Shown: positions 9,729-48,730 of the stretch, piece after piece
Position numbering within the stretch: the stretch's first letter is position 1
How the letters are laid out: every line of letters begins with the position of its first letter
DNA from: an uncultured virus (IMG/VR IMGVR_UViG_2061766007_000680)
Taxonomy: Duplodnaviria > Heunggongvirae > Uroviricota > Caudoviricetes
Length of the DNA stretch: 64,000 bases
Virus record (IMG/VR): IMGVR_UViG_2061766007_000680
Reading direction: 5' to 3' (one strand)
The notes under the pieces: model-generated
What the model was told of the DNA's origin: nothing
Database searches by the model: none
The model's input: only the letters and a program-made list of their open reading frames with translations
Position numbers and translations under genes: made by a program

Positions 9729-11060
9729 TTACGAAATTGCTTTTTTGTACTCATCAAGGAGTTTATCTAAGAACACTTCTCCGTTAAAACCCGCTTCAAG
9801 GAATTTTAAAAGGGTTGGATTATAACCACTAAGGTATATATTTCCATTTTTATCTGATGTCATCATTTCTGGCGATGTATAAGAACGTTCATTTAATGAC
9901 CACCAAACAATTTTAGTTTTGTAACCGTTTCTTTTCCACAATGCCTCCAACTCATCCTTAGATTGTCTGCTACCATAGTCGAACTCCATATCACTAAGTA
10001 CTACAAGGTACTCAGGTACATCATCCAACCCCTTGAGAAGTTCCATTACAGCGCCGAAGTCAGTGTTAGTGCAGTCGCCAGTATACATACTTGCAAGTTC
10101 TGTCTCATACTTAGAATCCTTGTTATAAGGGAAAGTTCCATAGTAGCCTCTTTGGCGTTGTGGCATTATACCCAACTTAATCAATTGTGGGTGGCTTGAG
10201 AAAGATACAACTGTATCAGGTGCATATGTACTGCATTTTGCAAGGTAGTGACCGATAGCCATAGCCTTACCGATGCAGTCGTTAACGTTACACATACTAC
10301 CGCTAGTATCAACGATTGGCAACCAGTTACCACTAATCTTCTCAAATTTGTCAAAGATAATATCAGCGTCAATTTTTTTACGATTACGGTAGATGTCGTA
10401 AACAGTGGCAGTTGACACCTTTATATCTTTAACACCCTTCTTAACGTCGTCAAGGTACATAGAGAAACGTTCTGAGGTGTCCTTACCTGTTTTGAAGCGC
10501 TTGAAATACTTCAACATAGCCAAAGAAGGAACATGTTCGAAATCGATCTCGTCAGTATTCTTTCTTGACAATTTGTTTTCAGTAGTGTTGCACTTAATAA
10601 AGTGGCCATACTCTTGCTTTGTCATACCCCAATATTTTGCAATAGACCAGGCGAGTAAGAAATTTTGAGAAGAGTAACGAGGCATCCATTTCTTCACCAA
10701 TTCGTTACCATTCTCAATTTCTTTCTTGGCATAATCAAGAACTTCTCTCGATAAACCAAAGACGGCAAACACGTCGTCGAAACGGCCAGCCTTAATTACG
10801 TTATCCAACGAAACATTAGCAAGTTTCATCAAACGACGACCAAGGTCACGTTTACCTAAACCGAAACGTGGGTCACGAATGAACATAGAGAAAAGTTTAT
10901 CCTTTTCAGTTGTACCAATAGTAACCTCATCCAAATGGTTTTGATAATACTCCGTTCCAAAGAGGGTGTTAAGATTTTGGTTAGTAAAACTAACCTTATC
11001 AAATGCAACATCACCGTTCTCAGTCAACTTCATCGAAAAAAGTTCTTCAAGTTTTGCCAT
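9729..11060 (-). CDS. DUF2828-type TROVE/Ro60-like protein with C-terminal vWA domain
   Basis: TENGD N-terminus, RDPRFGLGKR, KWMPR, VPSLAM, MIDAS-like VDTSGSM, TDF, LSDMEFD, IVWW, LSGY motifs. Confidence 0.8.
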   Translation of the reverse strand: MAKLEELFSMKLTENGDVAFDKVSFTNQNLNTLFGTEYYQNHLDEVTIGTTEKDKLFSMFIRDPRFGLGKRDLGRRLMKLANVSLDNVIKAGRFDDVFAVFGLSREVLDYAKKEIENGNELVKKWMPRYSSQNFLLAWSIAKYWGMTKQEYGHFIKCNTTENKLSRKNTDEIDFEHVPSLAMLKYFKRFKTGKDTSERFSMYLDDVKKGVKDIKVSTATVYDIYRNRKKIDADIIFDKFEKISGNWLPIVDTSGSMCNVNDCIGKAMAIGHYLAKCSTYAPDTVVSFSSHPQLIKLGIMPQRQRGYYGTFPYNKDSKYETELASMYTGDCTNTDFGAVMELLKGLDDVPEYLVVLSDMEFDYGSRQSKDELEALWKRNGYKTKIVWWSLNERSYTSPEMMTSDKNGNIYLSGYNPTLLKFLEAGFNGEVFLDKLLDEYKKAIS

Positions 11061-15848: not shown

Positions 15849-16397
15849 GCCCTGATAATTCAATGGATAGAATAAAATCCTTCAAGTAGTTGAATGTTAG
15901 TCAATTATAGGAGTGCTATGGCGAGAAATCCCATAGTAGAACCTCCCTAATTCGGTGGAAGTCTGTTGAAATAAACAAAGGCTAACCAATAATGCCTACA
16001 GATAATACCGAGCCAATGTTATTAGTTTTTAACAGGATTAACAGTTAGAACCTGTAGACTAAGAGACAGTGTGTAGAGACTATACAGGAGGGACCTAAGT
16101 TGGAATTAAGCAGTAAGTAAGCCAAAGTAGTAAAGACATTGAGGAGTACAGTATAATATGGTACACTTACTTTGGAAAAATAATAGGTGAATTACTGCAG
16201 AGCAGGATATCCAATTCCAATATGGTTAAGATAGAGTCCAGACTACAACAAATATATTCTTATAAGTAGAACCCTGGTAATGGCGGGGAGTCCTAAGCAC
16301 TTGAATTAACAAGGAAACACTGCGGAATATATTTGACCATGGAAACATGGAGTAGTATGCTAAGATTGAAATCTAGGTTCGATTCCTAGTCGGGGTA
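15849..16397 (+). tRNA. tRNA-Arg(UCU), intron-split (exons 15849-15882 and 16360-16397)
   Basis: Joined exons give acceptor GCCCTGA/TCGGGGT, anticodon arm AATC-CT-TCT-AA-GATT, T arm CTAGG-TTCGATT-CCTAG. Confidence 0.85.
15883..16359 (+). mobile_element. group I self-splicing intron, 477 nt, no ORF
   Basis: Exon ends in U, intron ends in G; P AATTCGGTGGAA (15949), Q AATACCGAGCC (16004), R GTAGAGACTATA (16073), S AAGATAGAGTCC (16228); P3 CCTCC/GGAGG. Confidence 0.88.
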
Positions 16398-17106: not shown

Positions 17107-18141
17107 ATGATTAAGTTTAATGGAGTTGTATATACGAAAGAAGATATACAGAAAATAGTAAAAGAATCTACTTCTATAAGTGAAGTTTTAAGAAAAGTAC
17201 ATGTTAGTGATAGAGGTGGCAATCATCAGAGATTAAAAAAATACCTATCTGAAAATAATATAGATAATACAACACTTGTTGGAAGAAAAATATGTAGAGT
17301 TAAAAGACTTGGAATTCCAAAGAAAAGGCTAAGCCAAGTGTTAGTTAAACATAGTACTGGTAATTCTAATTCATTAAGAAATCGCCTATTAGCAAATGGA
17401 ATAAAAACTTGGGTTTGTGAAAAATGTGGAAACTCAGTTTATGATGGAGAACCAATACCATTAGAATTACATCATGTTAATGGGGATCATTTTGATAATC
17501 GTTTAGAGAACTTATTATTATTATGTCCTATATGTCACTCAAAGACTAGTAATTTTAGAGGTAAAAATAACCAGTATGATAAAGTTTTAAGTGATATTGC
17601 TAAGAAGAATTCAGAGGGTAAATTAGAAAAACTCTTAGAAAAAGAAAGTTTAGAAAAACAAATTTATACCCTTAAAAAGATTGAAAGAGGCGAAATAACT
17701 TTAACTAAACAAAACAAAACAAATATTAAACAATATTGTGAATGTTGTGGAAAAGAAATAACAAAAAGGGGAAGAAAAAAATATTGTTCTACAGAGTGTG
17801 CTAAAAAAATGCTTAAACGAAATGAGTATAATAAAGAAAAATTAATTAATGACTCAAAAACAGTACACTCAATGATTGAGTTTGGTAAACTTTATAAAAT
17901 TTCGTATAATGCAATAAAAAAACATTTAAAACAATTAGACATACTTGATATTTGCAAAAGTAATTTTATACCCTATAGGAATGAGATATTACAATATACG
18001 ATATCAGGTGATTTTGTTAAAGAATGGAAAAATTCAAGTGAGATTGAAAAAGAGTTAGGTATTAAAAAACAAAATATTAATAGTTGCGCTAACGGGGAAA
18101 GAAAATCATCAAACGGTTACATTTGGAGATATAAAATCTAG
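17107..18141 (+). CDS. HNH homing endonuclease with C-terminal NUMOD1-like HTH
   Basis: CEKCG...LELHHVNGDHFDNRLENLLLLCPICH; C-terminal ILQYTISGDFVKEW...GYIWRY. Confidence 0.88.
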   Translation: MIKFNGVVYTKEDIQKIVKESTSISEVLRKVHVSDRGGNHQRLKKYLSENNIDNTTLVGRKICRVKRLGIPKKRLSQVLVKHSTGNSNSLRNRLLANGIKTWVCEKCGNSVYDGEPIPLELHHVNGDHFDNRLENLLLLCPICHSKTSNFRGKNNQYDKVLSDIAKKNSEGKLEKLLEKESLEKQIYTLKKIERGEITLTKQNKTNIKQYCECCGKEITKRGRKKYCSTECAKKMLKRNEYNKEKLINDSKTVHSMIEFGKLYKISYNAIKKHLKQLDILDICKSNFIPYRNEILQYTISGDFVKEWKNSSEIEKELGIKKQNINSCANGERKSSNGYIWRYKI

Positions 18142-20863: not shown

Positions 20864-20950
20864 GGCGCTATCGACTAGTGGTTTATGTCGGCAGCCTTTC
20901 ACGCTGCTTGGAGAGTAATCTCCTCACGAGTTCGAATCTCGTTGGCGCTA
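20864..20950 (+). tRNA. tRNA-Glu(UUC) with long variable arm
   Basis: GGCGCTA/TGGCGCT, GCAGC-CT-TTC-AC-GCTGC, variable hairpin GGAGA-GTAA-TCTCC. Confidence 0.85.
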
Positions 20951-21035: not shown

Positions 21036-21938
21036 ATGAATATGGCACATAAAAACAATACAAAGTATGACTATTTATTCTCTGAAAAAGAGAAAGAAAA
21101 AATGCGAAAAGAGTACCTAGAAGGCTTATCGATACGAGAGATTGCGGATAAGTATAATATTAAAGCGAATCAATGGATTCGGTTAAAATTATTACATGGT
21201 ATAACTCGTAATTTTTCAGAGGCTAATAAGTTAGCACATAAAAAATATCCAGAAAGATTTAGGCTCTCCGAAGAGGCAAAATCAAAAGTTAGGGAGGCAC
21301 GTTTAAAATTTATGAAAGAACATCCAGAACAAACAGCGTGGAGATTATCAAAAAATAACACATCGTACCCAGAAAAATGTTTTATTAAATATCTAAAAGA
21401 TAGAGGTATTGATAAAAAATACGAAATAGAAAGAGAAAAATCTTTTTTTCCATATTATGCTGATTTTGCTTTTAATGAGATAAAATTAGTTGTAGAGATA
21501 GACGGTTCTCAACACGAATCAGACGAAGAGAGAGTTGAAAGGGACAGAAAGAAAGATGAACTAATTCAGAGTCTTGGATGGAAGGTTATTCGTTATACAG
21601 AGGATACTGTTAAGAATGATTGGAATTTAATAGACAATACTTTAAATTTAGATAATTTTAGAAAAATAGAAAGTGGTAAAAGATTTGGAATATTCAAGAA
21701 GCCGAAAGGTTATATTAAAAAAGAACGATTAGACAATGGAAGAACAAGCGCTCAGAATGAAGCGAGTTTAAAGCAGCGTAAAGTTGAACGACCAACAAAA
21801 GAAAAGTTATTAGAGTTGGTTAAAAAATATTCATTTAGGGCTTTAGGTAAAGAATTCGGTGTTTCTGAACGAACGATTAGTAAGTGGTGTAAATATTACG
21901 GTTTACCATATAAAAAGAAAGAGTTAAAATCAATTTAA
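21036..21938 (+). CDS. DUF559/Vsr-like PD-(D/E)xK homing endonuclease with HTH domains
   Basis: SYPEKCF, YYADFAF, VVEIDGSQH, RDRKKDELIQSLGWKVIRY; terminal HTHs. Confidence 0.8.
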   Translation: MNMAHKNNTKYDYLFSEKEKEKMRKEYLEGLSIREIADKYNIKANQWIRLKLLHGITRNFSEANKLAHKKYPERFRLSEEAKSKVREARLKFMKEHPEQTAWRLSKNNTSYPEKCFIKYLKDRGIDKKYEIEREKSFFPYYADFAFNEIKLVVEIDGSQHESDEERVERDRKKDELIQSLGWKVIRYTEDTVKNDWNLIDNTLNLDNFRKIESGKRFGIFKKPKGYIKKERLDNGRTSAQNEASLKQRKVERPTKEKLLELVKKYSFRALGKEFGVSERTISKWCKYYGLPYKKKELKSI

Positions 21939-21942
21939 TATT

Positions 21943-22512
21943 ATGAAAACAGAAGTAACATTTTTCAAACAAGACAATAAGTGGTATGCTGATATACCAA
22001 ATCATACATTAGAAGAAAATGAAATGGTTACGGGGGCTGATATTGCTTTGGAATATCTATCTGGAGGTTACAATAGCGTCGTTTTAAGTCTTACTGATGA
22101 ACAAACTAATGATTATCAGTTGGCATTCAAAATGAGCGTTCATGATGATGATGGTGCATACTATACGGTTAGTGGACCGTTATATAATATATACATAGAT
22201 GGTTTAATTTCAGAAAATGATGAGATATTAAATAGTATATGGATATGTAATGTAACACATGATGTATTTGGTGAACACCCAAACGAAATCTATGTAACAA
22301 ACATCTACCAAATCAATAGAATGTCAGAAGAGGAAATGGAAAAAGAAATTCATAAGGAATATGACAGAAAACAATGTGTTTACGGAGAAAATTCAAAAAT
22401 GCCGTGTTTTTTATGCTCTGCTACATGTAGAGAACGCTATGAAGACTTTACCAAAAAAGGTGTAAAAATTGTAACAACTCCTGTGGATGATAAAGATAAC
22501 GGTGATTCATGA
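21943..22512 (+). CDS. hypothetical protein (DUF6717-like)
   Basis: WYADIP...EMVTGAD...IWIC...VFGEHPNEIY pattern. Confidence 0.55.
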   Translation: MKTEVTFFKQDNKWYADIPNHTLEENEMVTGADIALEYLSGGYNSVVLSLTDEQTNDYQLAFKMSVHDDDGAYYTVSGPLYNIYIDGLISENDEILNSIWICNVTHDVFGEHPNEIYVTNIYQINRMSEEEMEKEIHKEYDRKQCVYGENSKMPCFLCSATCRERYEDFTKKGVKIVTTPVDDKDNGDS

Positions 22513-22718
22513 TAGCCATTAAGCACGTACACAAACAGGCTTCGACTTAGGACAGTTGATTATATATAGGTTTATTAACCCATTGTCGGAATGATTCATG
22601 ATAAGTTCCGAATCGTAACTTCCATTCCCACCCATTCGTGGGTGCAGTGAAATGCTGAATCGTATAATGTCAGGTGAGTTATTGAGTTCTCATGAGAATT
22701 GTAAAAACTCTTTTTTAC

Positions 22719-22797
22719 TGGGTAGTAACGCCCTTGTCTTATACACAAGCATTAACAGCGTAATTGGTGTATGTGGGTTCGAGTCCCACCTACCCTA
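22719..22797 (+). tRNA. non-canonical tRNA-Ile(UAU)-like RNA with displaced D loop
   Basis: GGGTAG/CTACCC, CTTGT-CT-TAT-AC-ACAAG, T arm GTGGG-TTCGAGT-CCCAC; TAATTGG lies 3' of the anticodon arm. Confidence 0.65.
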
Positions 22798-22896
22798 CAA
22801 GGATTTTTCAAAAAACGTGTTCGAACTGCATTTTTTTAAAAAAGATAGTTCGTTTTTTAAAAGTAAAAAGTATTTATTATTAAACAGATAATAAAT

Positions 22897-23553
22897 ATGG
22901 GAAAATACACAAAAGACGAATTAGAAAAGTTAATAATAGAGGAAAATAAAAGTTATAACTCTATTGGAAAAATGTTCGGAGTTACAGGAGCCGCAATTAA
23001 AAAGGCGGCTAAAAAATTTGGAATAACGACTACAAAACGACGTGAAATAAATCCAAAAGAGATATTTAGTCATCCAAGATTTTGTAAAAATTCATTGGTA
23101 AATCGAATTTCGGACAATGATTTTAAAGAAATAGTCATAGCGTCATATTCTTGGAAAGAAATAGGTGATAAACTTGGATATAAATCAAACTTGTCTATAA
23201 ACGTTAAAAATGCTATTAATAATAGATGTGAGACATTAGGAATATCACTTAATTTCTGTAAAAAAGAAGAGTTATTAAATAAAACAAAAGGTAGTTTATT
23301 TTCTGAACGAAAAAATTGGCAATCAGCAAGAACTGCAATAAGAAAAAATGCAACAGAAACATATTTTCGTAGCAACAAAGAACACAAATGCGCTATCTGT
23401 GGTTATAATAAACATATTGAAGTGGCACATATCAAAGCAGTATCAGATTTTAGTAATAATACAACAATAAGAGAAATAAATTCAATTACAAACTTAATAG
23501 GGTTATGCCCAAATCATCATTGGGAATATGATCATGGCTTGATAAGTTTATAA
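22897..23553 (+). CDS. HNH homing endonuclease
   Basis: CAICG...EVAHIK...NLIGLCPNHHWEYD; N-terminal HTH. Confidence 0.88.
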   Translation: MGKYTKDELEKLIIEENKSYNSIGKMFGVTGAAIKKAAKKFGITTTKRREINPKEIFSHPRFCKNSLVNRISDNDFKEIVIASYSWKEIGDKLGYKSNLSINVKNAINNRCETLGISLNFCKKEELLNKTKGSLFSERKNWQSARTAIRKNATETYFRSNKEHKCAICGYNKHIEVAHIKAVSDFSNNTTIREINSITNLIGLCPNHHWEYDHGLISL

Positions 23554-23559
23554 TTTCAC

Positions 23560-23640
23560 GGGCATATTGTCAAGTGGCCAAAGACAGCGGCCTGTTAAGC
23601 CGCCCCGAAAGGTTCATAGGTTCGAATCCTATTGTGCCCG
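23560..23640 (+). tRNA. tRNA-Asn(GUU) with extra variable hairpin
   Basis: GGGCATA/TGTGCCC, GCGGC-CT-GTT-AA-GCCGC, variable region CCCGAAAGGTTC. Confidence 0.88.
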
Positions 23641-24091
23641 CAACAAATCCCGACTACGATTTAACGTCGGTTGACTCTCCTTCAATAAGATGGACGCTAG
23701 TGGTGATTAGCGATACGATTCCCACCTGACTAAGCATTTCAAAATGAAATGTAGCAAGGTTTGTAGTTTTTACCGCATGGGTCTAATCAACCAAAAGATT
23801 ACACTCTACCACCCCATCATTTCCTTGATGGGAAAAGACACAAAACCGTAAAAGGTACTAAATTTGTGACTGCTGATTTATAAGGTTGCTATCAGCGTAG
23901 GACTATGATTTAGTTCGGTGAAATATACGTTCTAATTCGGTATGGTGTTGAGTCCTTCACGAGGCCGTGTTTTAGAGCCATATCTTTTTTTTTCAAAAAG
24001 GGAGTAAGTCCATGTTCACTGATAGCACGAGGCCCCTTTCTTAATTACCGATTTCGAATAGGTATTAAGTTTTACGAAGGCTATCAAAATT

Positions 24092-24163
24092 GCACCATTA
24101 GTATAATGGTTATTACTTTGGCTTTGTAACCCAAAAATCTTGGTTCGATTCCGAGATGGTGCT
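24092..24163 (+). tRNA. tRNA-Thr(UGU)
   Basis: GCACCAT/ATGGTGC, loop TT-TGT-AA, T arm CTTGG-TTCGATT-CCGAG. Confidence 0.88.
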
Positions 24164-24166
24164 CAA

Positions 24167-24306
24167 AATATTTACTAAAAAGAGGTGGTTCCTCTTATAT
24201 ACATACCTAACCAGTTTGTATATTGTGTCGTCTAAGGATAGGATAATGGCCCGCCTAAAGGCTGTAGATGTTGGGTTCGACTTCCCAACCGCTAAACGTA
24301 AATATT
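24167..24306 (+). ncRNA. tRNA-like RNA with remodelled acceptor region
   Basis: D-, anticodon- and T-like arms at about 24228-24289 enclosed by AATATTTAC/GTAAATATT with inserted hairpins. Confidence 0.4.
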
Positions 24307-24313
24307 AACTCAT

Positions 24314-24403
24314 AATTAGGCTAAGACTTCGAAGGGTGCTGCACGGTATGTTAGGATCTGGGTTGATCACTCAACGTAGGTTCGAGTCCTACTTAGTCTA
24401 ATT
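24314..24403 (+). ncRNA. tRNA-like RNA family X, copy 1
   Basis: Acceptor-like AATTAGGCTAA/TTAGTCTAATT, T arm GTAGG-TTCGAGT-CCTAC; homologous to 24790-24872. Confidence 0.65.
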
Positions 24404-24408
24404 CATCT

Positions 24409-24481
24409 TGCCCTGTCGTCCAATTGGTTAAGACATCAGATTTTGATTCTGGGAACCTGGGTTCGAGTCCTAGTGGGGCAA
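24409..24481 (+). tRNA. tRNA-Gln(UUG)
   Basis: TGCCCTG/TGGGGCA, TCAGA-TT-TTG-AT-TCTGG. Confidence 0.9.
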
Positions 24482-24548
24482 CAATTTGGTTAGATAACTT
24501 ATGCACGAACACTGTCAGTTGTTGTGTACCTTTTAGGTAAGATTATAT

Positions 24549-24625
24549 AGGCAAATATCTCCTCTCGCTGATACCGAGTAGAAAGAGTAGTTGGTTACAC
24601 GTAGGTTCGACTCCTATTTTGCCTA
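24549..24625 (+). tRNA. non-canonical tRNA-Ile(GAU)-like RNA with displaced D loop
   Basis: AGGCAAA/TTTGCCT, CTCG-CT-GAT-AC-CGAG, T arm GTAGG-TTCGACT-CCTAT; TAGTTGGTTA lies 3' of the anticodon arm. Confidence 0.65.
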
Positions 24626-24630
24626 CAAAT

Positions 24631-24702
24631 GCCGAGATAGTTCAGTGGCAGAACATTCGTCTCATACGCGAATAGTCGGTGGTTCAAATCCATCTCTCGG
24701 TA
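24631..24702 (+). tRNA. tRNA with CAU anticodon (Met or lysidine-Ile2)
   Basis: GCCGAGA/TCTCGGT, TTCGT-CT-CAT-AC-GCGAA. Confidence 0.88.
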
Positions 24703-24710
24703 CTAATAAT

Positions 24711-24785
24711 GGGTCAGTCGTCTAGTGGTTTAGGATATCTGCCTTACAAGCAGAAGATTCGATGGTTCAAATCCATCTTGGCCCA
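24711..24785 (+). tRNA. tRNA-Val(UAC)
   Basis: GGGTCAG/TTGGCCC, TCTGC-CT-TAC-AA-GCAGA. Confidence 0.9.
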
Positions 24786-24789
24786 CAAA

Positions 24790-24872
24790 GACTATCAGAC
24801 TTCGAGGATGCATGCAGGTATGTTAGGTTCGGGGCTGATCACCCCACGTAGGTTCGAGTCCTACTGATAGTC
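24790..24872 (+). ncRNA. tRNA-like RNA family X, copy 2
   Basis: Acceptor-like GACTATCA/TGATAGTC; same T arm and internal motifs as copy 1. Confidence 0.65.
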
Positions 24873-24877
24873 CAGGC

Positions 24878-24958
24878 GCCCCTGGTTGAAAGCACCGTGG
24901 AGGTTCGAGTCCTCTTCTAGGACATAGTTCTAGATGGCGAAATGGAAGACGCGGGGGT
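24878..24958 (+). ncRNA. circularly permuted tRNA mimic (YrlA-type Y RNA-like)
   Basis: Order: GCCCCT, variable arm, T arm GGAGG-TTCGAGT-CCTCT, loop-capped acceptor TCTAGGA-CATAG-TTCTAGA, D arm GCG-AAATGGAAGA-CGC, GGGGGT. Confidence 0.7.
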
Positions 24959-25006
24959 AAGAAAGTTGTTAGTTGTAGCAACTATAAATAACTACAACTA
25001 TAATTT

Positions 25007-25094
25007 GGTGGCGTAGTGTAATTGGCTAGCATGTCAGCCTGTCACGCTGAAGGGTGCCGAAAGGCCGTTGCGGGTTCAAGTCCCGTCGTCACCG
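25007..25094 (+). tRNA. tRNA-Asp(GUC) with long variable region
   Basis: GGTGGCG/CGTCACC, TCAGC-CT-GTC-AC-GCTGA, insert containing GCC-GAAA-GGC. Confidence 0.85.
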
Positions 25095-25316
25095 CTCTAA
25101 AACAACACGATATTACTAATTAAGCAGGTTGTTCCATGTTAAGTGAAAGTAGTGAGTGACTATCATGATGATAACTTAAAGAAGAGTTGAAGTGGTACAT
25201 AACGAATAGGTTAAAGAAATTAGTTGACGAGGAAAAATAGGAATTAGTCATTTCTATTCTTGAAAAGGTTAATTTTGGATGCTACAGTATAACCTTAAAT
25301 TCAAAACATCCACCAT

Positions 25317-25392
25317 GGGGGTGTAGCAAAATTGGTAACCGCACCGCCCTTGCACGGCGGGTTTTTTGAGGGTTCGAGTCCCTTCGCTTCCA
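25317..25392 (+). tRNA. tRNA-Ala(UGC)
   Basis: GGGGGTG/CGCTTCC with G3-U70, CCGCC-CT-TGC-AC-GGCGG. Confidence 0.9.
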
Positions 25393-25394
25393 CA

Positions 25395-25569
25395 AGGCTG
25401 TGTAGGAAGGATATTATATACGCCAAATATAATAACACCCCGACATTGGATAAGAATGAACACTTATGATGATTGGCACCATCTGGAACAGGTGGAAAAC
25501 GGCTGCATCACCTTTGGCGAGGTAAAGTAAGTTAGTAAAGAATACAGGTTCAAGTCCTGTCACAGTCTC
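25395..25569 (+). ncRNA. tRNA-ended RNA with large insert (tmRNA-like architecture)
   Basis: AGGCTGTG/CACAGTCT, T arm ACAGG-TTCAAGT-CCTGT, internal CGCCAAA/TTTGGCG helix. Confidence 0.5.
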
Positions 25570-25945
25570 TAAAGTTAGAGGAAGAAGTCTATTATTCTTG
25601 CCTGTATAGGGAGGCATTCTTTGCAGGTTACTAATTCGGGATTGTAAAAAACTGCCTAAAAGGACAATCTCATATCTAATAAGAGGAGTGACAAACGAAT
25701 TAGTTGTAACGGAATATTCTTATCTTAGTCCGTAAAGAGGTGTTGCGAATAATAGAGCGCATCACGAATCTAACTTAACCCATAATGATAGGTCGCGGGT
25801 ATGCTTTCACGATGGCAAGAACCTGGAACTAGCTCTAAGTCAGCAACCGACATAATTTTATATTATGAACATAATAGTGTATAATGAAACCTATCATTTT
25901 TTACTATACACCTGGAGATTACGTATCAGAAAGTGGTGTTTTTAT

Positions 25946-26019
25946 ACCTCCTTAACCCAATTGGAAGAGGTAATAGACTAAGAATCTATGTAGTGCAGGT
26001 TCGAATCCAACAGGAGGTA
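25946..26019 (+). tRNA. tRNA with AAG anticodon on an Arg-like short-arm body (possibly degenerate)
   Basis: ACCTCCT/AGGAGGT, ATAGA-CT-AAG-AA-TCTAT; two T-stem mismatches. Confidence 0.6.
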
Positions 26020-35092: not shown

Positions 35093-36220
35093 CTAAACAC
35101 CAATTAAATTCTGCTTATGCAAGGCAAAATCCCTGATGTTAATCGCTGCATTTACATCCCTATCATGGTGTTCACCACATTGTGGACATGTCCATTCACG
35201 TACCGATAAGGTTAATTCAGAGTTAATATACCCGCATTTACTACAGGTTTTGCTACTCGGTTCAAACCTGCCAACATAAACCACGTTTTTACCATACAAC
35301 TCCGCCTTGTATTCGAGTTGTCTAACGAATTCACTCCATGCCGCACTCTGTATTGAGTTAGCCAAGTGACGGTTTTTAAGCATACCTTCCACGTTTAGGT
35401 TCTCCAAACATATGGTATCGAATCTACGTACTAAATCCGTAGATAACTTATGCGTGAAATCACTACGCATGTAAGAAATTCTACGATGTAGTCTTGCGAG
35501 TTTAAGACGTAGTTTTTCATGGTTTTTAGAACCTTTTTTACTACGAGCGAACACCTTATTGAGATGTGCTAATTTCCTACTGTACTTCTCCAAGTATTTC
35601 GGATTACCGTATTTAGTACCGTCAGATAATATTGCGTAGTCCTTGATGCCGAGGTCAACGCCTACGGCCGTTTCCAAAACTATCTTGGTTTTCGATGGTT
35701 TTTGTTGCAGGTCATCGACTACTATTGTGCACCAATATTCTCCGCATTTATCACGGCTTACGGTTAATGTACCTATTTTACAAGATGCAAGGTCAAACGT
35801 TTTATTCATGCAGAGTTTAGTCCATCCGATTTTAGGTATTTTCACTTTCCAATTATCAAAATTGAAATGAACACATGTAATGAACTTCACGGAATCCTTG
35901 GATTTCTTTTTGCTTTTGAATTTAGGAAAACCTTTTTTCTCACGAAAGAACCGAACGAATGCCATATCGAGACAACGTAATGATTGCTGTAATGTTTCTG
36001 TTGGGCAGTTGCATAACCATGTGTACTCATTTTGTTTTTTCAAGTTGGTTAGTTCACGTGCGATTTCGATGTAGCTTACTGTTTTTTTATCTTGTTTATA
36101 GGTTTGTATTTTACGATCAAGTCCCCAATTATATATAAACCTAGCACACCCGAAAAATATATTCAGTTGTTTCTGTTGTTTTACAGTTGGTTTGAGTTTA
36201 TATTTATAGGATTTAATCAT
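35093..36220 (-). CDS. tnpB: IS200/IS605-family TnpB RNA-guided nuclease (no TnpA nearby)
   Basis: N-terminal HTH (GCARFIYN), RuvC-I GVDLG, RuvC-II ICLENL, zinc ribbon CSKCG/CPQCG, RuvC-III DRDVNAA. Confidence 0.93.
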   Translation of the reverse strand: MIKSYKYKLKPTVKQQKQLNIFFGCARFIYNWGLDRKIQTYKQDKKTVSYIEIARELTNLKKQNEYTWLCNCPTETLQQSLRCLDMAFVRFFREKKGFPKFKSKKKSKDSVKFITCVHFNFDNWKVKIPKIGWTKLCMNKTFDLASCKIGTLTVSRDKCGEYWCTIVVDDLQQKPSKTKIVLETAVGVDLGIKDYAILSDGTKYGNPKYLEKYSRKLAHLNKVFARSKKGSKNHEKLRLKLARLHRRISYMRSDFTHKLSTDLVRRFDTICLENLNVEGMLKNRHLANSIQSAAWSEFVRQLEYKAELYGKNVVYVGRFEPSSKTCSKCGYINSELTLSVREWTCPQCGEHHDRDVNAAINIRDFALHKQNLIGV

Positions 36221-46771: not shown

Positions 46772-48730
46772 ATGAGTAGTAATAAAGTAATTGGTATTGA
46801 CTTAGGAACAGGATTCTCGTGTGTAGCGGTAATGGAAGGTGGTAAACCAACCGTTATAGTCAACGAAGAGGGACAACGCACCACGCCTTCAGTTATCTAC
46901 ATTGACAAAGATGGCATTGAAGTAGGTGCATCTGCAAAACGTAAGATGACTATGAAACCAAAGAATACGGTTTCTTTTATTAAACGCTTTATGGGCGCAA
47001 ATTGGGATGATGCTGATGTGCAAGAAATGCTTAAACGTGTTTCTTATGAGGTAGTAAATGAAAATGGGAAACCACGCGTTAACATTGACGGTAAAGCATA
47101 TTCCCCAGAAGAAATTTCGTCCTATACTTTAGCAAAACTTAAAAAAGTTGCTGAAAATTATTATGGCGAAGAGGTAACAAAAGCTGTTATTACTGTACCA
47201 GCCTGGTTTAATGACGCACAACGCCAAGCAACTAAATTGGCTGGCGAAATCGCAGGCCTTGAAGTACTACGTGTGATCAATGAGCCTACTGCAGCAATTC
47301 TTGCATCTCCAATTAAAGTGGAAGAAGATAAGGATAAAACAGTTGCAGTGTTTGACTTTGGCTGTGGTACATTGGATGTGTCTGTATGCTCACTATCTAT
47401 GGTTGATGGACAATTGATGGTTGAGGTACTTGCATCTTATGGTGATGTATTCCTTGGCGGTGAAAACTATGACCACGCTATTGTAAACTGGTTACGTGAC
47501 GAATATGCAAAGGACCATGCAGGTGTTGATCTTACAAAAGATAAAATGGCATACTCTCGTCTTATTGAAGCAGCAGAAAAGGCTAAATGTGAATTGTCGT
47601 CTAGCCCATCTAGCGAAATTAATCTTCCTTATATTTCTGTACAAGATGGAGTTCCACAACATTTGGTAGTAACTTTAACACGTGCTAAATTTGATCAATT
47701 AACAGAGGATATTACCGCAAAGGCCATTGAGTGTACAAGAAAGTCACTCGAAAAGGCTAAAAAAACAGCAAGTGACTTAGATTCTATCTTATTGGTGGGT
47801 GGATCAACTCGTTTGCTATCAGTACAAGAGGCTCTTAAGAAAGAGTTCAACGTAACCCTTGATAAATCTTCCAATCCAGATGAAAGTGTGGCATTGGGCG
47901 CGGTCACTCAGGCCAACATCCTCGTCGGTGGCGAAGCAGCAAAGGATGTATTATTACTTGATGTAACCCCACTTTCTGTTGGTATTGAAACTGAGGGTGA
48001 GGTTATGACAGTTATGATTGAGGCTAATACTACGATTCCGACACAAAAGAAACAGACATTCACGACCTCCGTTGATAATCAGCCAGCCGTATCGATCCGA
48101 ATTTTTCAGGGGGAGCGTCAGTTTACCAGAGACAATAAGTTAATTGGTAACTTTGAACTTGGTGGTATTCTTCCTGCAAAACGCGGTGTTCCGCAAATTG
48201 AAGTAACATTTGATATTGATGCTAGTGGCATTCTTAAAGTGTCAGCAAAAGACCTTGGAACGGGTAAAGAGAACAATGTAACTATTACATCTTCTAACTC
48301 CATGTCAAAAGAAGAGGTTGAGCGTATTAAGGCCGAGGCCGAAGCACACAAGGCTGAGGATGCAAAACGCAAAGCCGAAGTTGATAAACTTAATAGTTGT
48401 GAGCACTATGCTTATGCAATTCAACAAACTCTTGATGACGAATCTTTGAAAGATAAGATTACCGAAGAACAGCGTAAACAGTTATCAGAGGGTGTAGAGA
48501 AGATTCTTGCTGCCGTTAAGGACAAGGATTTAACCAAAGCAGAAACTGCGCAGAAAGATTTGGAGAAAATCTTTAATCCTATTGCAAGTGAACTATATAA
48601 GCAACCTGATGCAAATGCACAAGCGGGTGGTACAGACTTCGGCCAACAATTCCAAGATTTTACGAAAAATCAAGGCCAGGGTCCAAAAACTGAAGGCCCA
48701 ACAGATGCAAATTTCGAGGAAGTTAAATAA
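46772..48730 (+). CDS. dnaK: molecular chaperone DnaK (Hsp70)
   Basis: [64 protein letters not shown]. Confidence 0.97.

What the first reader, a model, noticed from the sequence alone, without database searches (positions are those of the whole stretch)
22719..24625. Two Ile-anticodon tRNA-like RNAs with the D loop moved 3' of the anticodon arm
Elements at 22719-22797 (UAU) and 24549-24625 (GAU) share a rewired fold: acceptor stem, short linker, a 3-bp helix strand (CGC or CTC), the anticodon arm, its partner strand (GCG or GAG, covarying), then a D-loop-like TA(A/G)TTGGT directly before a canonical T arm. The D-loop GG that contacts the T loop thus comes from the variable-region position. 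Both carry Ile anticodons, and no conventional tRNA-Ile(GAU) is seen in the array, suggesting a functional alternative tRNA architecture. UAU anticodons are rare in bacteria.
Basis: partly seen in the sequence, partly recalled or inferred. Interest (0 to 1): 0.72.

Follow-up and report, generated by a model that had tools for sequence, protein, structure and literature searches.

The report
Phage tRNAs with a transposed D-arm
Two isoleucine tRNA genes in a rumen phage belong to a widespread class of phage tRNAs, mostly missed by gene finders, in which half of the D arm sits on the far side of the anticodon arm while the marks of a normal, chargeable tRNA are kept.

Summary
Elements 22719-22797 (anticodon UAU) and 24549-24625 (GAU) have a normal acceptor stem, T arm and anticodon arm. 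They have no D hairpin. A 3-4 bp helix brackets the anticodon arm, and a D-loop-like UA-R-UUGGU lies just before the T arm.

They are not oddities of one genome. Pattern scans of IMG/VR found more than 100 distinct relatives. Members also occur in cultured phages: Felixounavirus EC6, Streptomyces phage Yaboi and Microbacterium phage Magritte. Most are unannotated.

Every helix covaries, with 97% of cells paired against 64% when shuffled. The tertiary 15:48 pair also covaries (98 of 101). Anticodons are almost only Ile/Met type (NAU) or Arg. The base after GG follows the bacterial identity rule: A20 in 23 of 23 Arg-type elements and in 0 of 100 Ile-type elements.

ARAGORN of 81 members. Rfam's tRNA model scores the two window elements just above threshold.

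The best reading (about 0.8) is that they are working tRNA-Ile decoders for AUA and AUU/AUC, with a strand-permuted D arm and a preserved L shape. Charging and expression were not shown. I found no description of this architecture in five literature searches.

The parts
22719..22797 (+). E1: 79-nt permuted-D-arm tRNA, anticodon UAU (reads AUA, Ile), subfamily A with the long AUUAACA-type linker
   Evidence: Rfam RF00005 30.7 bits with the D arm deleted and a variable-region insertion. Family model R1 69.1 bits. ARAGORN makes no call.
22719..22725 (+). E1 acceptor stem 5' strand, pairing with 22790-22796; the 1:72 pair is U.U
   Evidence: Sequence. Acceptor columns are 96.3% paired in the family, with compensatory changes at all 7 pairs.
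22728..22731 (+). E1 helix X 5' strand ACGC, the topological equivalent of D-stem positions 22-25
   Evidence: Pairs with GCGU at 22758-22761. In the family these columns (11-13 with 43-45) are 99.6% paired and all 3 pairs are compensatory.
22733..22749 (+). E1 anticodon arm: 5-bp stem and 7-nt loop CUUAUAC; anticodon UAU at 22740-22742
   Evidence: Sequence. Rfam aligns it to the anticodon arm. U33 and A37 are invariant in the family.
22750..22757 (+). E1 linker CAUUAACA between the anticodon stem and the helix X 3' strand
   Evidence: The YRUUAACN linker is shared by subfamily A members.
22758..22772 (+). E1 helix X 3' strand GCGU (equivalent to positions 10-13), then D-loop-like AAUUGGU (14-20) and spacer GUAU ending in the Y48 equivalent
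   Evidence: UA-R-UUGG is invariant or nearly so in the family, and R15 covaries with Y48.
22773..22797 (+). E1 T arm (GUGGG / UUCGAGU / CCCAC), acceptor 3' strand and discriminator A (22797); no CCA is encoded
   Evidence: T-loop motif hit at 22776-22786. Sequence.
24549..24625 (+). E2: 77-nt permuted-D-arm tRNA, anticodon GAU (reads AUU/AUC, Ile), subfamily B with the UNGAAA linker
   Evidence: Rfam RF00005 29.3 bits with the D arm deleted. Family model R1 88.6 bits. ARAGORN makes no call.
24549..24555 (+). E2 acceptor stem 5' strand, pairing with 24618-24624 (7 bp)
   Evidence: Sequence; family covariation.
24559..24561 (+). E2 helix X 5' strand CUC, preceded by U8 A9 and U at 24556-24558
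   Evidence: Pairs with GAG at 24585-24587; family covariation.
24564..24578 (+). E2 anticodon arm: 4-bp stem CUCG/CGAG and loop CUGAUAC; anticodon GAU at 24570-24572. U24563 faces U24579 as a 27:43-like U.U, and C24562 pairs with G24581 as a 26:44-like pair
   Evidence: Sequence. The C-G pair (columns 14:39) is present in 73 of 81 members.
24579..24584 (+). E2 linker UAGAAA
   Evidence: UNGAAA is conserved in subfamily B.
24585..24600 (+). E2 helix X 3' strand GAG-U (10-13 equivalents), D-loop-like AGUUGGUUA (14-21) and CAC ending in the C48 equivalent; G15 (24590) pairs with C48 (24600)
   Evidence: The Levitt-type pair covaries: AU 54, GC 21 of 81; 98 of 101 in a sample that left both positions free.
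24601..24625 (+). E2 T arm (GUAGG / UUCGACU / CCUAU), acceptor 3' strand and discriminator A (24625); no CCA is encoded
   Evidence: T-loop motif at 24604-24614. Sequence.

Best explanation
E1 and E2 are working elongator tRNA-Ile genes of a rumen phage. E1 (UAU) reads AUA and E2 (GAU) reads AUU/AUC. They are built on a phage-borne tRNA chassis in which the D arm is strand-permuted.

**The permutation.**
- The strand equivalent to positions 22-25 follows U8 A9 directly and runs into the anticodon stem.
- The strand equivalent to 10-13, with the D loop (A14 R15 Y Y G18 G19 U20 ..A21), comes after the anticodon arm and leads into the T arm.
- Helix X therefore stacks on the anticodon stem as the D stem does. 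The count is 4 bp + U.U, one C-G, then 3 bp + U.U, which is 10 layers, the same as the canonical 5+1+4.
- The D-like loop reaches the T loop, so the L shape and elbow are kept with a different backbone path (inferred).

**How it would work (inferred).**
- The acceptor/T minihelix is canonical 7/5, so RNase P, the CCA-adding enzyme (CCA is not encoded in either element) and EF-Tu would act as usual.
- Host IleRS would charge them through A73, the NAU anticodon, A37 and U20.
- The likely use is to supply decoders for the phage's many Ile codons.

Shown here: the conserved fold, the tertiary and identity covariation, the distribution, and the placement in tRNA arrays. Not shown: expression, processing, charging and decoding.
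For: 1. **Family and secondary structure.**
   - 81 distinct members aligned.
   - 97.1% of cells paired, against 63.7% shuffled; covariation score 0.853 against 0.209; slid controls give 36-44%.
   - RNAalifold finds helix X independently.
   - The 17 highest mutual-information column pairs are all pairs of the proposed structure.
2. **Tertiary core.**
   - U8, A9, A14, G18 G19 and the T-loop UUC are invariant.
   - 15:48 is A:U in 72 and G:C in 26 of 101 elements, in a scan that left both positions free.
3. **Identity elements.** Two scans left the anticodon and the base after GG free (and 79/80).
   - Arg anticodons carry A20 in 23 of 23 elements. Ile/Met-type anticodons carry A in 0 of 100 (U 97, G 2, C 1).
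   - In the sample, the discriminator is A in 93 of 93 Ile/Met-type elements, and G in 6 and A in 2 of the 8 Arg-type elements.
   - This matches the bacterial determinants listed in PMC9976931 (Table 1 and the identity sections, passages seen): Arg uses A20, C35 and A/G73; Ile uses A73, U20, A35, U36 and A37.
   - Several Arg-type relatives encode CCA.
4. **Anticodon restriction.** Of the 101 elements, UAU 69, GAU 19, CAU 5, ACG 6, UCU 1, CCU 1.
5. **Context.**
   - Both elements lie co-oriented inside the tRNA array, and no other tRNA-Ile is found in the window.
   - Ile is 7.7% of 12,389 codons, and AUA is 350 of 957 Ile codons.
   - In whole phage genomes the permuted member is often the only gene with that anticodon. 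UCU is sole in EC6, Yaboi, G006 and G007; CCU in Yaboi; GAU in Magritte, which has no canonical Ile.
6. **Virus association.** 82 of 118 pattern hits in viral contigs have the full fold, against 4 of 120 in prokaryote genomes.
Against: - There is no direct evidence of transcription, processing, CCA addition, aminoacylation or decoding for any member.
- RNA-library contigs touch only parts of E1 (22736-22790, from relatives with 5 of 55 letters different) and of E2. DNA carry-over cannot be excluded.
- E1 has a U.U mismatch at 1:72.
- Single-sequence folding is no better than shuffles (z -0.96 and -0.53).
- The permuted gene is sometimes redundant with a canonical one. Yaboi has Ile(GAU) twice over and Magritte has Arg(UCU) twice over, so it is not always needed as the sole decoder.
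Sampling is therefore motif-biased and the counts are not a census.
- The sequences are related by descent, so shuffle and Fisher figures overstate independence.
- The L shape is inferred from covariation and layer counting. No 3D model was built.
Confidence: 0.8

Rival explanations
1. They are tRNA mimics that do not decode. They could be decoys or sponges for host anticodon nucleases or other tRNA-binding defence or processing proteins, or punctuation signals for RNase P/Z in the array transcript. They would keep the outer tRNA shape and an anticodon-like loop but never be charged or used on the ribosome.
For: - Phage arrays, this one included, hold other tRNA-shaped RNAs without usable anticodons (leads).
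- The permuted gene coexists with a canonical isoacceptor in Yaboi and Magritte.
- No expression or charging data exist.
- Gene finders score them poorly.
Against: - A decoy for a nuclease would need the anticodon loop, but not A73 or G73, nor position 20 switching with the anticodon exactly as ArgRS and IleRS identity requires (23 of 23 and 0 of 100).
- Some members encode CCA.
- In 4 of 5 whole genomes the UCU member fills an anticodon that is otherwise absent.
- Punctuation needs only the acceptor/T half.
Confidence: 0.1
2. They are charged with a different amino acid, or serve a phage-specific recoding or a non-ribosomal aminoacyl transfer. In that case AUA/AUU would not simply be read as Ile by these RNAs.
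For: - Unusual architectures such as allo-tRNAs carry anticodons that do not match their charging identity (PMC5389517, abstract and passages).
- The 4-bp anticodon stem, unpinned at the top (U.U at 27:43), is a feature linked elsewhere to relaxed decoding (PMC13092985, passages).
Against: - The identity marks follow the anticodon. A20 with R73 goes with NCN Arg anticodons, and U20 with A73 goes with NAU.
- Neither G3:U70 nor a long variable arm, which would recruit AlaRS or SerRS, is a family feature.
- No aaRS gene was found among the 14 window proteins scanned against Pfam. Only 14 were scanned.
Confidence: 0.05
3. They are decaying tRNA pseudogenes, or chance tRNA-like sequence left by rearrangement beside homing endonuclease genes.
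For: - E1 lies next to an HNH endonuclease gene (22897-23553).
- E1 has a 1:72 mismatch.
- Rfam scores are marginal.
Against: - More than 100 distinct relatives keep every helix through compensatory changes. They come from phages of Actinobacteria, Proteobacteria, Bacteroidota and Firmicutes.
- Loops and tertiary positions are invariant.
- Pseudogenes would not keep the 15:48 covariation or the position-20 rule.
Confidence: 0.02

Closest known systems
Canonical bacterial and phage elongator tRNA-Ile (Rfam RF00005 cloverleaf)
   Same: - 7-bp acceptor stem, 5-bp T stem with a GUUCRA loop, and a 7-nt anticodon loop with U33 and A37.
- A73, U8, A14, R15:Y48 and G18G19.
- Placement in a phage tRNA array.
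- The same helical layer count from the anticodon to the core.
   Different: - There is no D hairpin between positions 9 and 26.
- The two D-stem strands are separated by the whole anticodon arm.
- The D loop is open-ended and feeds into the T stem.
- The ordinary variable loop is replaced by the UNGAAA or YRUUAACN linker and a 3-nt spacer.
D-armless mitochondrial tRNAs, e.g. mammalian mt-tRNA-Ser(AGY) (reviewed in PMC7609411, passages seen; PMC9427863, listing only)
   Same: A three-helix secondary structure without a D hairpin, and an extended anticodon helix.
   Different: - The mitochondrial forms have a D-replacement loop on the 5' side. By recall, not from the passages seen, they lack the G18G19/T-loop elbow contacts and need adapted partners.
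- Here the 5' connector is only UA(U), a D-stem-like helix is kept, and the GG and T-loop motifs are invariant.
Circularly permuted tRNA genes of the red alga Cyanidioschyzon merolae (recalled; such genes are mentioned in the introduction of PMC13092985)
   Same: Permutation of tRNA segments relative to the canonical order.
   Different: There the gene is permuted, and processing of a circular intermediate restores a canonical mature tRNA. Here the acceptor strands are at the two ends in normal order, so the mature RNA itself would be permuted inside.
YrlA-type bacterial and phage Y RNAs with a tRNA-like module (Rfam RF02553)
   Same: - A tRNA-like T arm and D-loop motifs in a non-canonical order.
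- Phage tRNA arrays often lie near Ro-like protein genes, as annotated in EC6 and Yaboi.
   Different: - In the RF02553 consensus structure printed, the tRNA-like module is closed by a long outer stem and I see no anticodon arm. By recall that stem binds Ro.
- RF02553 scores only 19.5 bits against a gathering score of 69, on a stretch spanning E2 and the next tRNA.
Allo-tRNAs and (8/4) phage tRNAs (PMC5389517; abstract and passages)
   Same: Non-canonical tRNA architectures found by metagenome mining, some of them in phage tRNA clusters. UAU is a frequent allo-tRNA anticodon.
   Different: Allo-tRNAs have 8/4 or 9/3 acceptor/T branches, and the paper's passages on D-arm and V-arm do not describe a missing or moved D arm. 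Most have non-serine anticodons. By recall, they also carry a long variable arm and serine identity. This family is 7/5, has no variable arm, and its identity marks follow the anticodon.

Membership tests
tRNA (functional elongator, canonical cloverleaf; Rfam RF00005) | 7-bp acceptor stem with an unpaired discriminator base | tested here: met
   The columns are 96.3% paired, with compensatory changes at all 7 pairs. E2 has 7 of 7 pairs. E1 has 6 of 7, with U.U at 1:72.
tRNA (functional elongator, canonical cloverleaf; Rfam RF00005) | 5-bp T stem and 7-nt T loop with the UUCRA motif | tested here: met
   (97% paired).
tRNA (functional elongator, canonical cloverleaf; Rfam RF00005) | Anticodon arm with a 7-nt loop, U33 and purine 37 | tested here: met
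   The loops are CUUAUAC and CUGAUAC. U33 and A37 are invariant in 81 members. The stem is 5 bp in E1 and 4 bp plus U.U in E2.
tRNA (functional elongator, canonical cloverleaf; Rfam RF00005) | D arm as a hairpin between positions 9 and 26 | tested here: not met
   The Rfam alignment replaces 15 D-arm model positions with 4 nt. ARAGORN fails on 79 of 81 members.
tRNA (functional elongator, canonical cloverleaf; Rfam RF00005) | Score at or above the Rfam gathering threshold (29 bits) | tested here: met
   30.7 and 29.3 bits. This is marginal.
tRNA (functional elongator, canonical cloverleaf; Rfam RF00005) | Tertiary core: U8-A14, R15:Y48, and G18G19 contacting the T loop | tested here: met
   The bases are invariant and 15:48 covaries. 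The contacts themselves are inferred, not seen.
tRNA (functional elongator, canonical cloverleaf; Rfam RF00005) | Mature 3' CCA and aminoacylation | not testable with these tools
   CCA is not encoded in E1 or E2. It is encoded in several Arg-type relatives.
Bacterial tRNA-Ile identity set | A73, NAU anticodon, A37 and U20, as listed for Bacteria in PMC9976931 Table 1 | tested here: met
   E1 and E2 carry all of these. In the family, A73 is found in 93 of 93 and U after GG in 97 of 100 Ile/Met-type members. Other listed E. coli determinants, such as C29-G41 and C4-G69, are not conserved.
D-armless mitochondrial tRNA | A D-replacement loop 5' of the anticodon stem, with loss of the GG/T-loop elbow motifs | tested here: not met
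   The 5' connector is 2-3 nt, helix X is present, and the GG and UUC motifs are invariant.
Circularly permuted tRNA gene | The 3' half is encoded upstream of the 5' half, and the acceptor strands are internal | tested here: not met
   The acceptor strands are at the two ends in normal order.
YrlA / Y RNA-like (RF02553) | Rfam gathering score, and a Ro-binding stem in place of the anticodon arm | tested here: not met
   19.5 bits against 69. An anticodon arm is present.
Allo-tRNA | 8/4 or 9/3 acceptor/T branch | tested here: not met
   The branch is 7/5, and there is no variable-arm helix.

The most novel reading that the evidence does not exclude
The permuted-D-arm chassis is a third structural class of bacterial-type tRNA, beside classes I and II. 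It is fully active in translation but confined to substrates of two class Ia synthetases (IleRS and ArgRS, rarely ValRS). Phages of many bacterial phyla keep and exchange it because the re-routed backbone on the variable-loop face makes these tRNAs poor substrates for host tRNA-targeting nucleases, or for the phage's own attack on host tRNA. The face read by the synthetase, EF-Tu and the ribosome is left intact.
Probability: 0.25. Interest if true: 0.92.

Novelty: new variant of a known kind. Interest (0 to 1): 0.85.

Why it matters
- **Structure.** If these RNAs decode, the backbone path through the tRNA core is not fixed. The D stem and D loop can be supplied by strands in a different order while tertiary pairs and synthetase identity marks are kept. 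As far as my searches reach, this would be the first such natural bacterial-type tRNA topology. It would give a natural test of which tRNA features the synthetase, EF-Tu, modification enzymes and the ribosome really need.
- **Annotation.** ARAGORN misses 79 of 81 members. The members I inspected in cultured phages (EC6, heid, Yaboi, Magritte) are unannotated, apart from one mislabelled in Yaboi, and most records listed show no feature under the match. Phage tRNA repertoires for the rare codons AUA and AGA/AGG are therefore under-counted.
- **Tractability.** A UCU member sits in Felixounavirus phages that grow on laboratory E. coli K-12.
- **Engineering.** The chassis may also be useful as an orthogonal or nuclease-resistant tRNA scaffold.

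Tried and rejected
- **Own genome.** None is held for this window.
- **Close relatives of the region.** BLAST of 22000-26000 against phage records gave only short tRNA-sized hits and no close relative.
- **Single-sequence folding.** The z-scores for E1 and E2 (-0.96 and -0.53) are not informative.
- **Sequencing runs.** The DNA is held in bovine gut runs.
  - Four RNA-library runs, kept as contigs only, gave partial cover of E1 (22736-22790, from relatives) and of E2.
  - This cannot show transcription, RNA ends or CCA. Stretches without cover mean nothing.
- **Ile-only architecture.** Rejected: Arg anticodons occur on the same chassis.
- **Always replaces a missing isoacceptor.** Rejected: Yaboi and Magritte carry redundant pairs.
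- **YrlA reading.** Rejected.
- **Linker as anticodon loop.** I considered that the UUAACA linker might be the true anticodon loop, as in the Yaboi record's 'tRNA-Val(aac)'. I rejected it because no flanking stem pairs, and the real loop keeps U33 and A37.
- **Model R1 on the window.** It finds only E1 and E2. The next hit, at 27 bits, is the odd 88-nt tRNA-Glu.
- **Motif of the paralogous tRNA-like pair.** The motif from 24318-24400 and 24790-24872 has 0 matches in viral contigs.
- **The 23642-24091 stretch.** No match in phage records.
- **Earlier findings of this scan.**
  - Nothing by place or by sequence.
  - The search by words returned only anticodon-less phage tRNA mimics from other genomes.
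- **Records not held.** Two IMG/VR records, behind L129 and L125, were not held and so were not searched.
- **Literature.**
  - Five full-text searches and term-matched passages of five papers found no description of this architecture.
  - Subscription journals and supplements were not covered.
Full report
**1. The observation**

The window is a phage-like contig. No whole genome is held for it, and the DNA occurs in bovine gut metagenome runs. It has a + strand tRNA array from about 16.3 to 28.5 kb, interrupted by homing-endonuclease genes. These are a NUMOD protein at 17107-18141, a DUF559 protein at 21036-21938 and an HNH protein at 22897-23553.

ARAGORN finds 19 tRNAs. It finds neither element and no tRNA-Ile. 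It does this only by deleting the D arm (15 model positions reduced to 4 nt) and inserting 18-20 nt in the variable region.

Read directly, both elements have:
- a 7-bp acceptor stem (E1 has U.U at 1:72);
- U8 A9;
- a short strand, ACGC in E1 and (U)CUC in E2;
- an anticodon arm with loop CUUAUAC or CUGAUAC;
- a linker;
- the complementary strand, GCGU or GAG(U);
- A-A/G-UUGGU;
- a 3-5 nt spacer;
- a canonical T arm;
- discriminator A.

The description is correct.

**2. It is a family**

A pattern taken from the D-like motif and T arm found the same architecture in many IMG/VR contigs. Two further patterns collected more.

I aligned 81 distinct members, including E1, E2 and one from Microbacterium phage Magritte. 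On the structure I specified:
- 97.1% of 1,701 cells are standard pairs, against 63.7% in shuffles (0 of 500 shuffles reach it);
- 20 of 21 pairs show changes on both sides;
- sliding the partners by 1-3 columns drops pairing to 36-44%.

Helix X, which brackets the anticodon arm, is 99.6% paired. Its middle pair is C-G 40, U-A 24, G-C 15, A-U 2. RNAalifold predicts the same helix without my input. The 17 column pairs with the highest mutual information are all pairs of the proposed structure: 16 helix pairs plus one tertiary pair.

A covariance model built from the alignment (R1) finds only E2 (88.6 bits) and E1 (69.1 bits) in the window. The next hit scores 27 bits.

ARAGORN of the 81 members.

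**3. The D-like segment behaves as a real D loop**

Written in tRNA numbering, the strand after the anticodon arm reads N10 N11 N12 U13 A14 R15 Y16 Y17 G18 G19 U20 (N) A21. That is the consensus of a D-stem 5' strand plus D loop. The strand after U8 A9 continues into the anticodon stem, as positions 22-25 and 26 do.

Three results support this reading.
- **Levitt pair.** The base at '15' covaries with the base just before the T stem ('48'). The counts are A:U 54, G:C 21, G:U 1 and other 5, of 81. In a later scan whose pattern left both positions free, they are A:U 72, G:C 26 and other 3, of 101.
- **Layer count.** In E2 the stack is 4 anticodon-stem pairs, U.U, one C-G, 3 pairs of helix X and U.U. 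That is 10 layers, the same as the canonical 5 + 1 (26:44) + 4. E1 gives 5 + 1 + 4.
- **Position 20.** Two scans fixed neither the anticodon nor the base after GG.
  - Subfamily A: 36 loci, 22 distinct. UCU with A, 15 of 15. UAU or CAU with U, 6 of 7, and with G, 1 of 7.
Arg anticodons (ACG 6, UCU 1, CCU 1) with A, 8 of 8. UAU, GAU and CAU with U 91, C 1, G 1, of 93.
  - Together, A20 occurs in 23 of 23 Arg-type and 0 of 100 Ile/Met-type elements.
  - In the sample, the discriminator is A in 93 of 93 Ile/Met-type elements, and G 6 and A 2 in the Arg type.

The tRNA identity review PMC9976931 lists A20, C35 and A/G73 as the bacterial Arg determinants. It lists A73, U20, U21 and A35-A38, among others, for Ile (Table 1 and the identity sections, passages seen). 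A20 is read by ArgRS at the corner of the L, so this rule is hard to explain unless the loop sits where a D loop sits and the RNAs are charged by the cognate enzymes.

The sequences are related by descent, so the nominal statistics overstate independence.

**4. Distribution**

The family is virus-associated. The same pattern gave 82 full-architecture elements among 118 hits in viral contigs, and 4 among 120 hits in one-genome-per-species prokaryote contigs.

Members occur in cultured phages.

| Phage | Member(s) | Annotation in the record |
|---|---|---|
| Escherichia phage EC6 and many other Felixounavirus records | UCU | The EC6 stretch shows no tRNA features. In phage heid, which does annotate tRNAs, the spot carries no tRNA and is overlapped by an HNH CDS |
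| Streptomyces phage Yaboi | GAU, UCU, CCU | The UCU member is labelled 'tRNA-Val(aac)'; the other two are unannotated |
| Microbacterium phage Magritte | GAU, UCU | Both unannotated |

BLAST also gave hits in a Listeria phage and in crAss-like phages. In those records I did not confirm the fold.

I compared ARAGORN calls with R1 hits on five whole genomes.
- The UCU member is the only gene with that anticodon in 4 of 5 genomes: EC6, Yaboi, G006 and G007.
- CCU is the only such gene in Yaboi.
- GAU is the only Ile gene in Magritte.
- Yaboi also has canonical Ile(GAU) and Ile(UAU), and Magritte has a canonical Arg(UCU).

Replacement is therefore common but not a rule.

**5. Function in this window**

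Across 43 ORFs of at least 150 aa (12,389 codons), Ile is 7.7%. AUA is 350, AUU 475 and AUC 132 of 957 Ile codons. The only Ile-reading genes found in the window are E1 (UAU) and E2 (GAU). The CAU tRNA next to E2 (24631-24703) could be Met or Ile2.

The most likely working is therefore ordinary. The array transcript is cut by RNase P and 3' nucleases, CCA is added (it is not encoded), IleRS charges the RNAs, and they decode AUA and AUU/AUC. All of these steps are inferred.

RNA-library contigs from four studies touch only parts of E1 and E2, partly from relatives. They cannot show transcription.

**6. Why the odd topology?**

This is unknown. Two points are worth noting.
- All anticodons seen belong to IleRS and ArgRS (once ValRS, and MetRS if CAU is Met). 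These are class Ia enzymes. By established structural knowledge (recalled), they approach the tRNA with the variable-loop face towards solvent, and that is the face where the extra linkers lie.
- A re-routed core might escape host tRNA-targeting nucleases or the phage's own attack on host tRNA.

Both points are hypotheses. A neutral origin followed by spread through mobile tRNA arrays is equally open.

**7. Novelty**

Five full-text searches found no description of a tRNA with its D-stem strands split around the anticodon arm. Term-matched passages of five papers gave the same result:
- PMC7609411, a review of non-canonical tRNAs;
- PMC5389517, on allo-tRNAs;
- PMC9897764, on tRNA fragments;
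- PMC13092985, on 4-bp anticodon stems;
- PMC9976931, on identity.

Subscription journals and supplements were not covered, so prior description cannot be excluded.

**8. Verdict**

This is a real, conserved, phage-borne tRNA class with a strand-permuted D arm. The two window genes are its Ile members. The structure claim is very likely (about 0.95). The claim that they decode is likely (about 0.8) but untested.

Noticed in passing
window 23654-23907 (+): The gene-free stretch between tRNA-Asn and tRNA-Thr is covered by RNA-library contigs in 4 of 4 rumen metatranscriptome runs from 4 studies. Contigs begin at 23654-23658 right behind adapter letters and break at 23893/23907 into different continuations. 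The stretch folds far better than shuffles (z -3.69, 0 of 200). There is no Rfam family and no match in phage records. It is probably an abundant structured non-coding RNA module shared by rumen phages.
   Followed up: partly
window 20864-20950, 23560-23640, 25007-25094: tRNA-Glu(UUC), tRNA-Asn(GUU) and tRNA-Asp(GUC) carry insertions of 10-16 nt in the variable region. The insertions can form short hairpins capped by GNRA loops (GUAA, GAAA, GAAA). Long variable arms are normally limited to Leu, Ser and Tyr in bacteria.
   Followed up: partly
window 24318-24400 and 24790-24872: Two paralogous tRNA-like elements have a canonical T arm and an 8-9 bp acceptor-like stem that differs between the copies by compensatory changes. 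Each has a hairpin with loop YUGAUCA (a pyrimidine at '37') and a roughly 30-nt unexplained 5' domain. ARAGORN misses them, and tRNA-Sec scores 16.7 and 14.6 bits. Their motif has 0 matches in viral contigs. They resemble the anticodon-less phage tRNA mimics noted elsewhere in this scan.
   Followed up: partly
window T-loop motifs at 16376, 18205, 24274, 24902, 25547, 26303: Six further GGTTCRANTCC-type T-loop motifs in the array region have no ARAGORN call, and no convincing cloverleaf appears on folding. They could be fragments, mimics or intron-bearing tRNAs.
   Followed up: partly
IMG/VR loci such as L004, L011, L020, L043 (about positions 290-378): This is a second class of 88-90 nt tRNA-Ile(UAU) genes, with 18 distinct sequences. 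They have a normal D arm plus a variable-region insertion of about 18 nt containing the same AGA-UAAUUGGU motif, and CCA is encoded. Rfam scores them at 55-61 bits. They may be an intermediate on a duplicate-then-delete route to the permuted form. The insertion does not pair with the present D-stem 3' strand.
   Followed up: partly
L251:4997-5075 (Streptomyces phage Yaboi, NC_048730 86686-86764): The record annotates the permuted UCU element as tRNA-Val(aac). That reading takes the UUAACA linker as the anticodon loop.
   Followed up: yes
family alignment A1, columns 15 and 37; window 24563 and 24579: Subfamily B members have a conserved U.U at the top of the anticodon stem (27:43), leaving a 4-bp stem. 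A 2026 paper links stems unpinned in this way to relaxed decoding (PMC13092985, passages).
   Followed up: no
window 35093-36220 (-), 46772-48730 (+), 9729-11060 (-): The contig also encodes a TnpB/IS605 OrfB-type protein, a full-length Hsp70/DnaK homologue and a DUF2828/DUF7788 protein. EC6 and Yaboi have Ro-like RNA-binding protein genes beside their tRNA arrays.
   Followed up: no
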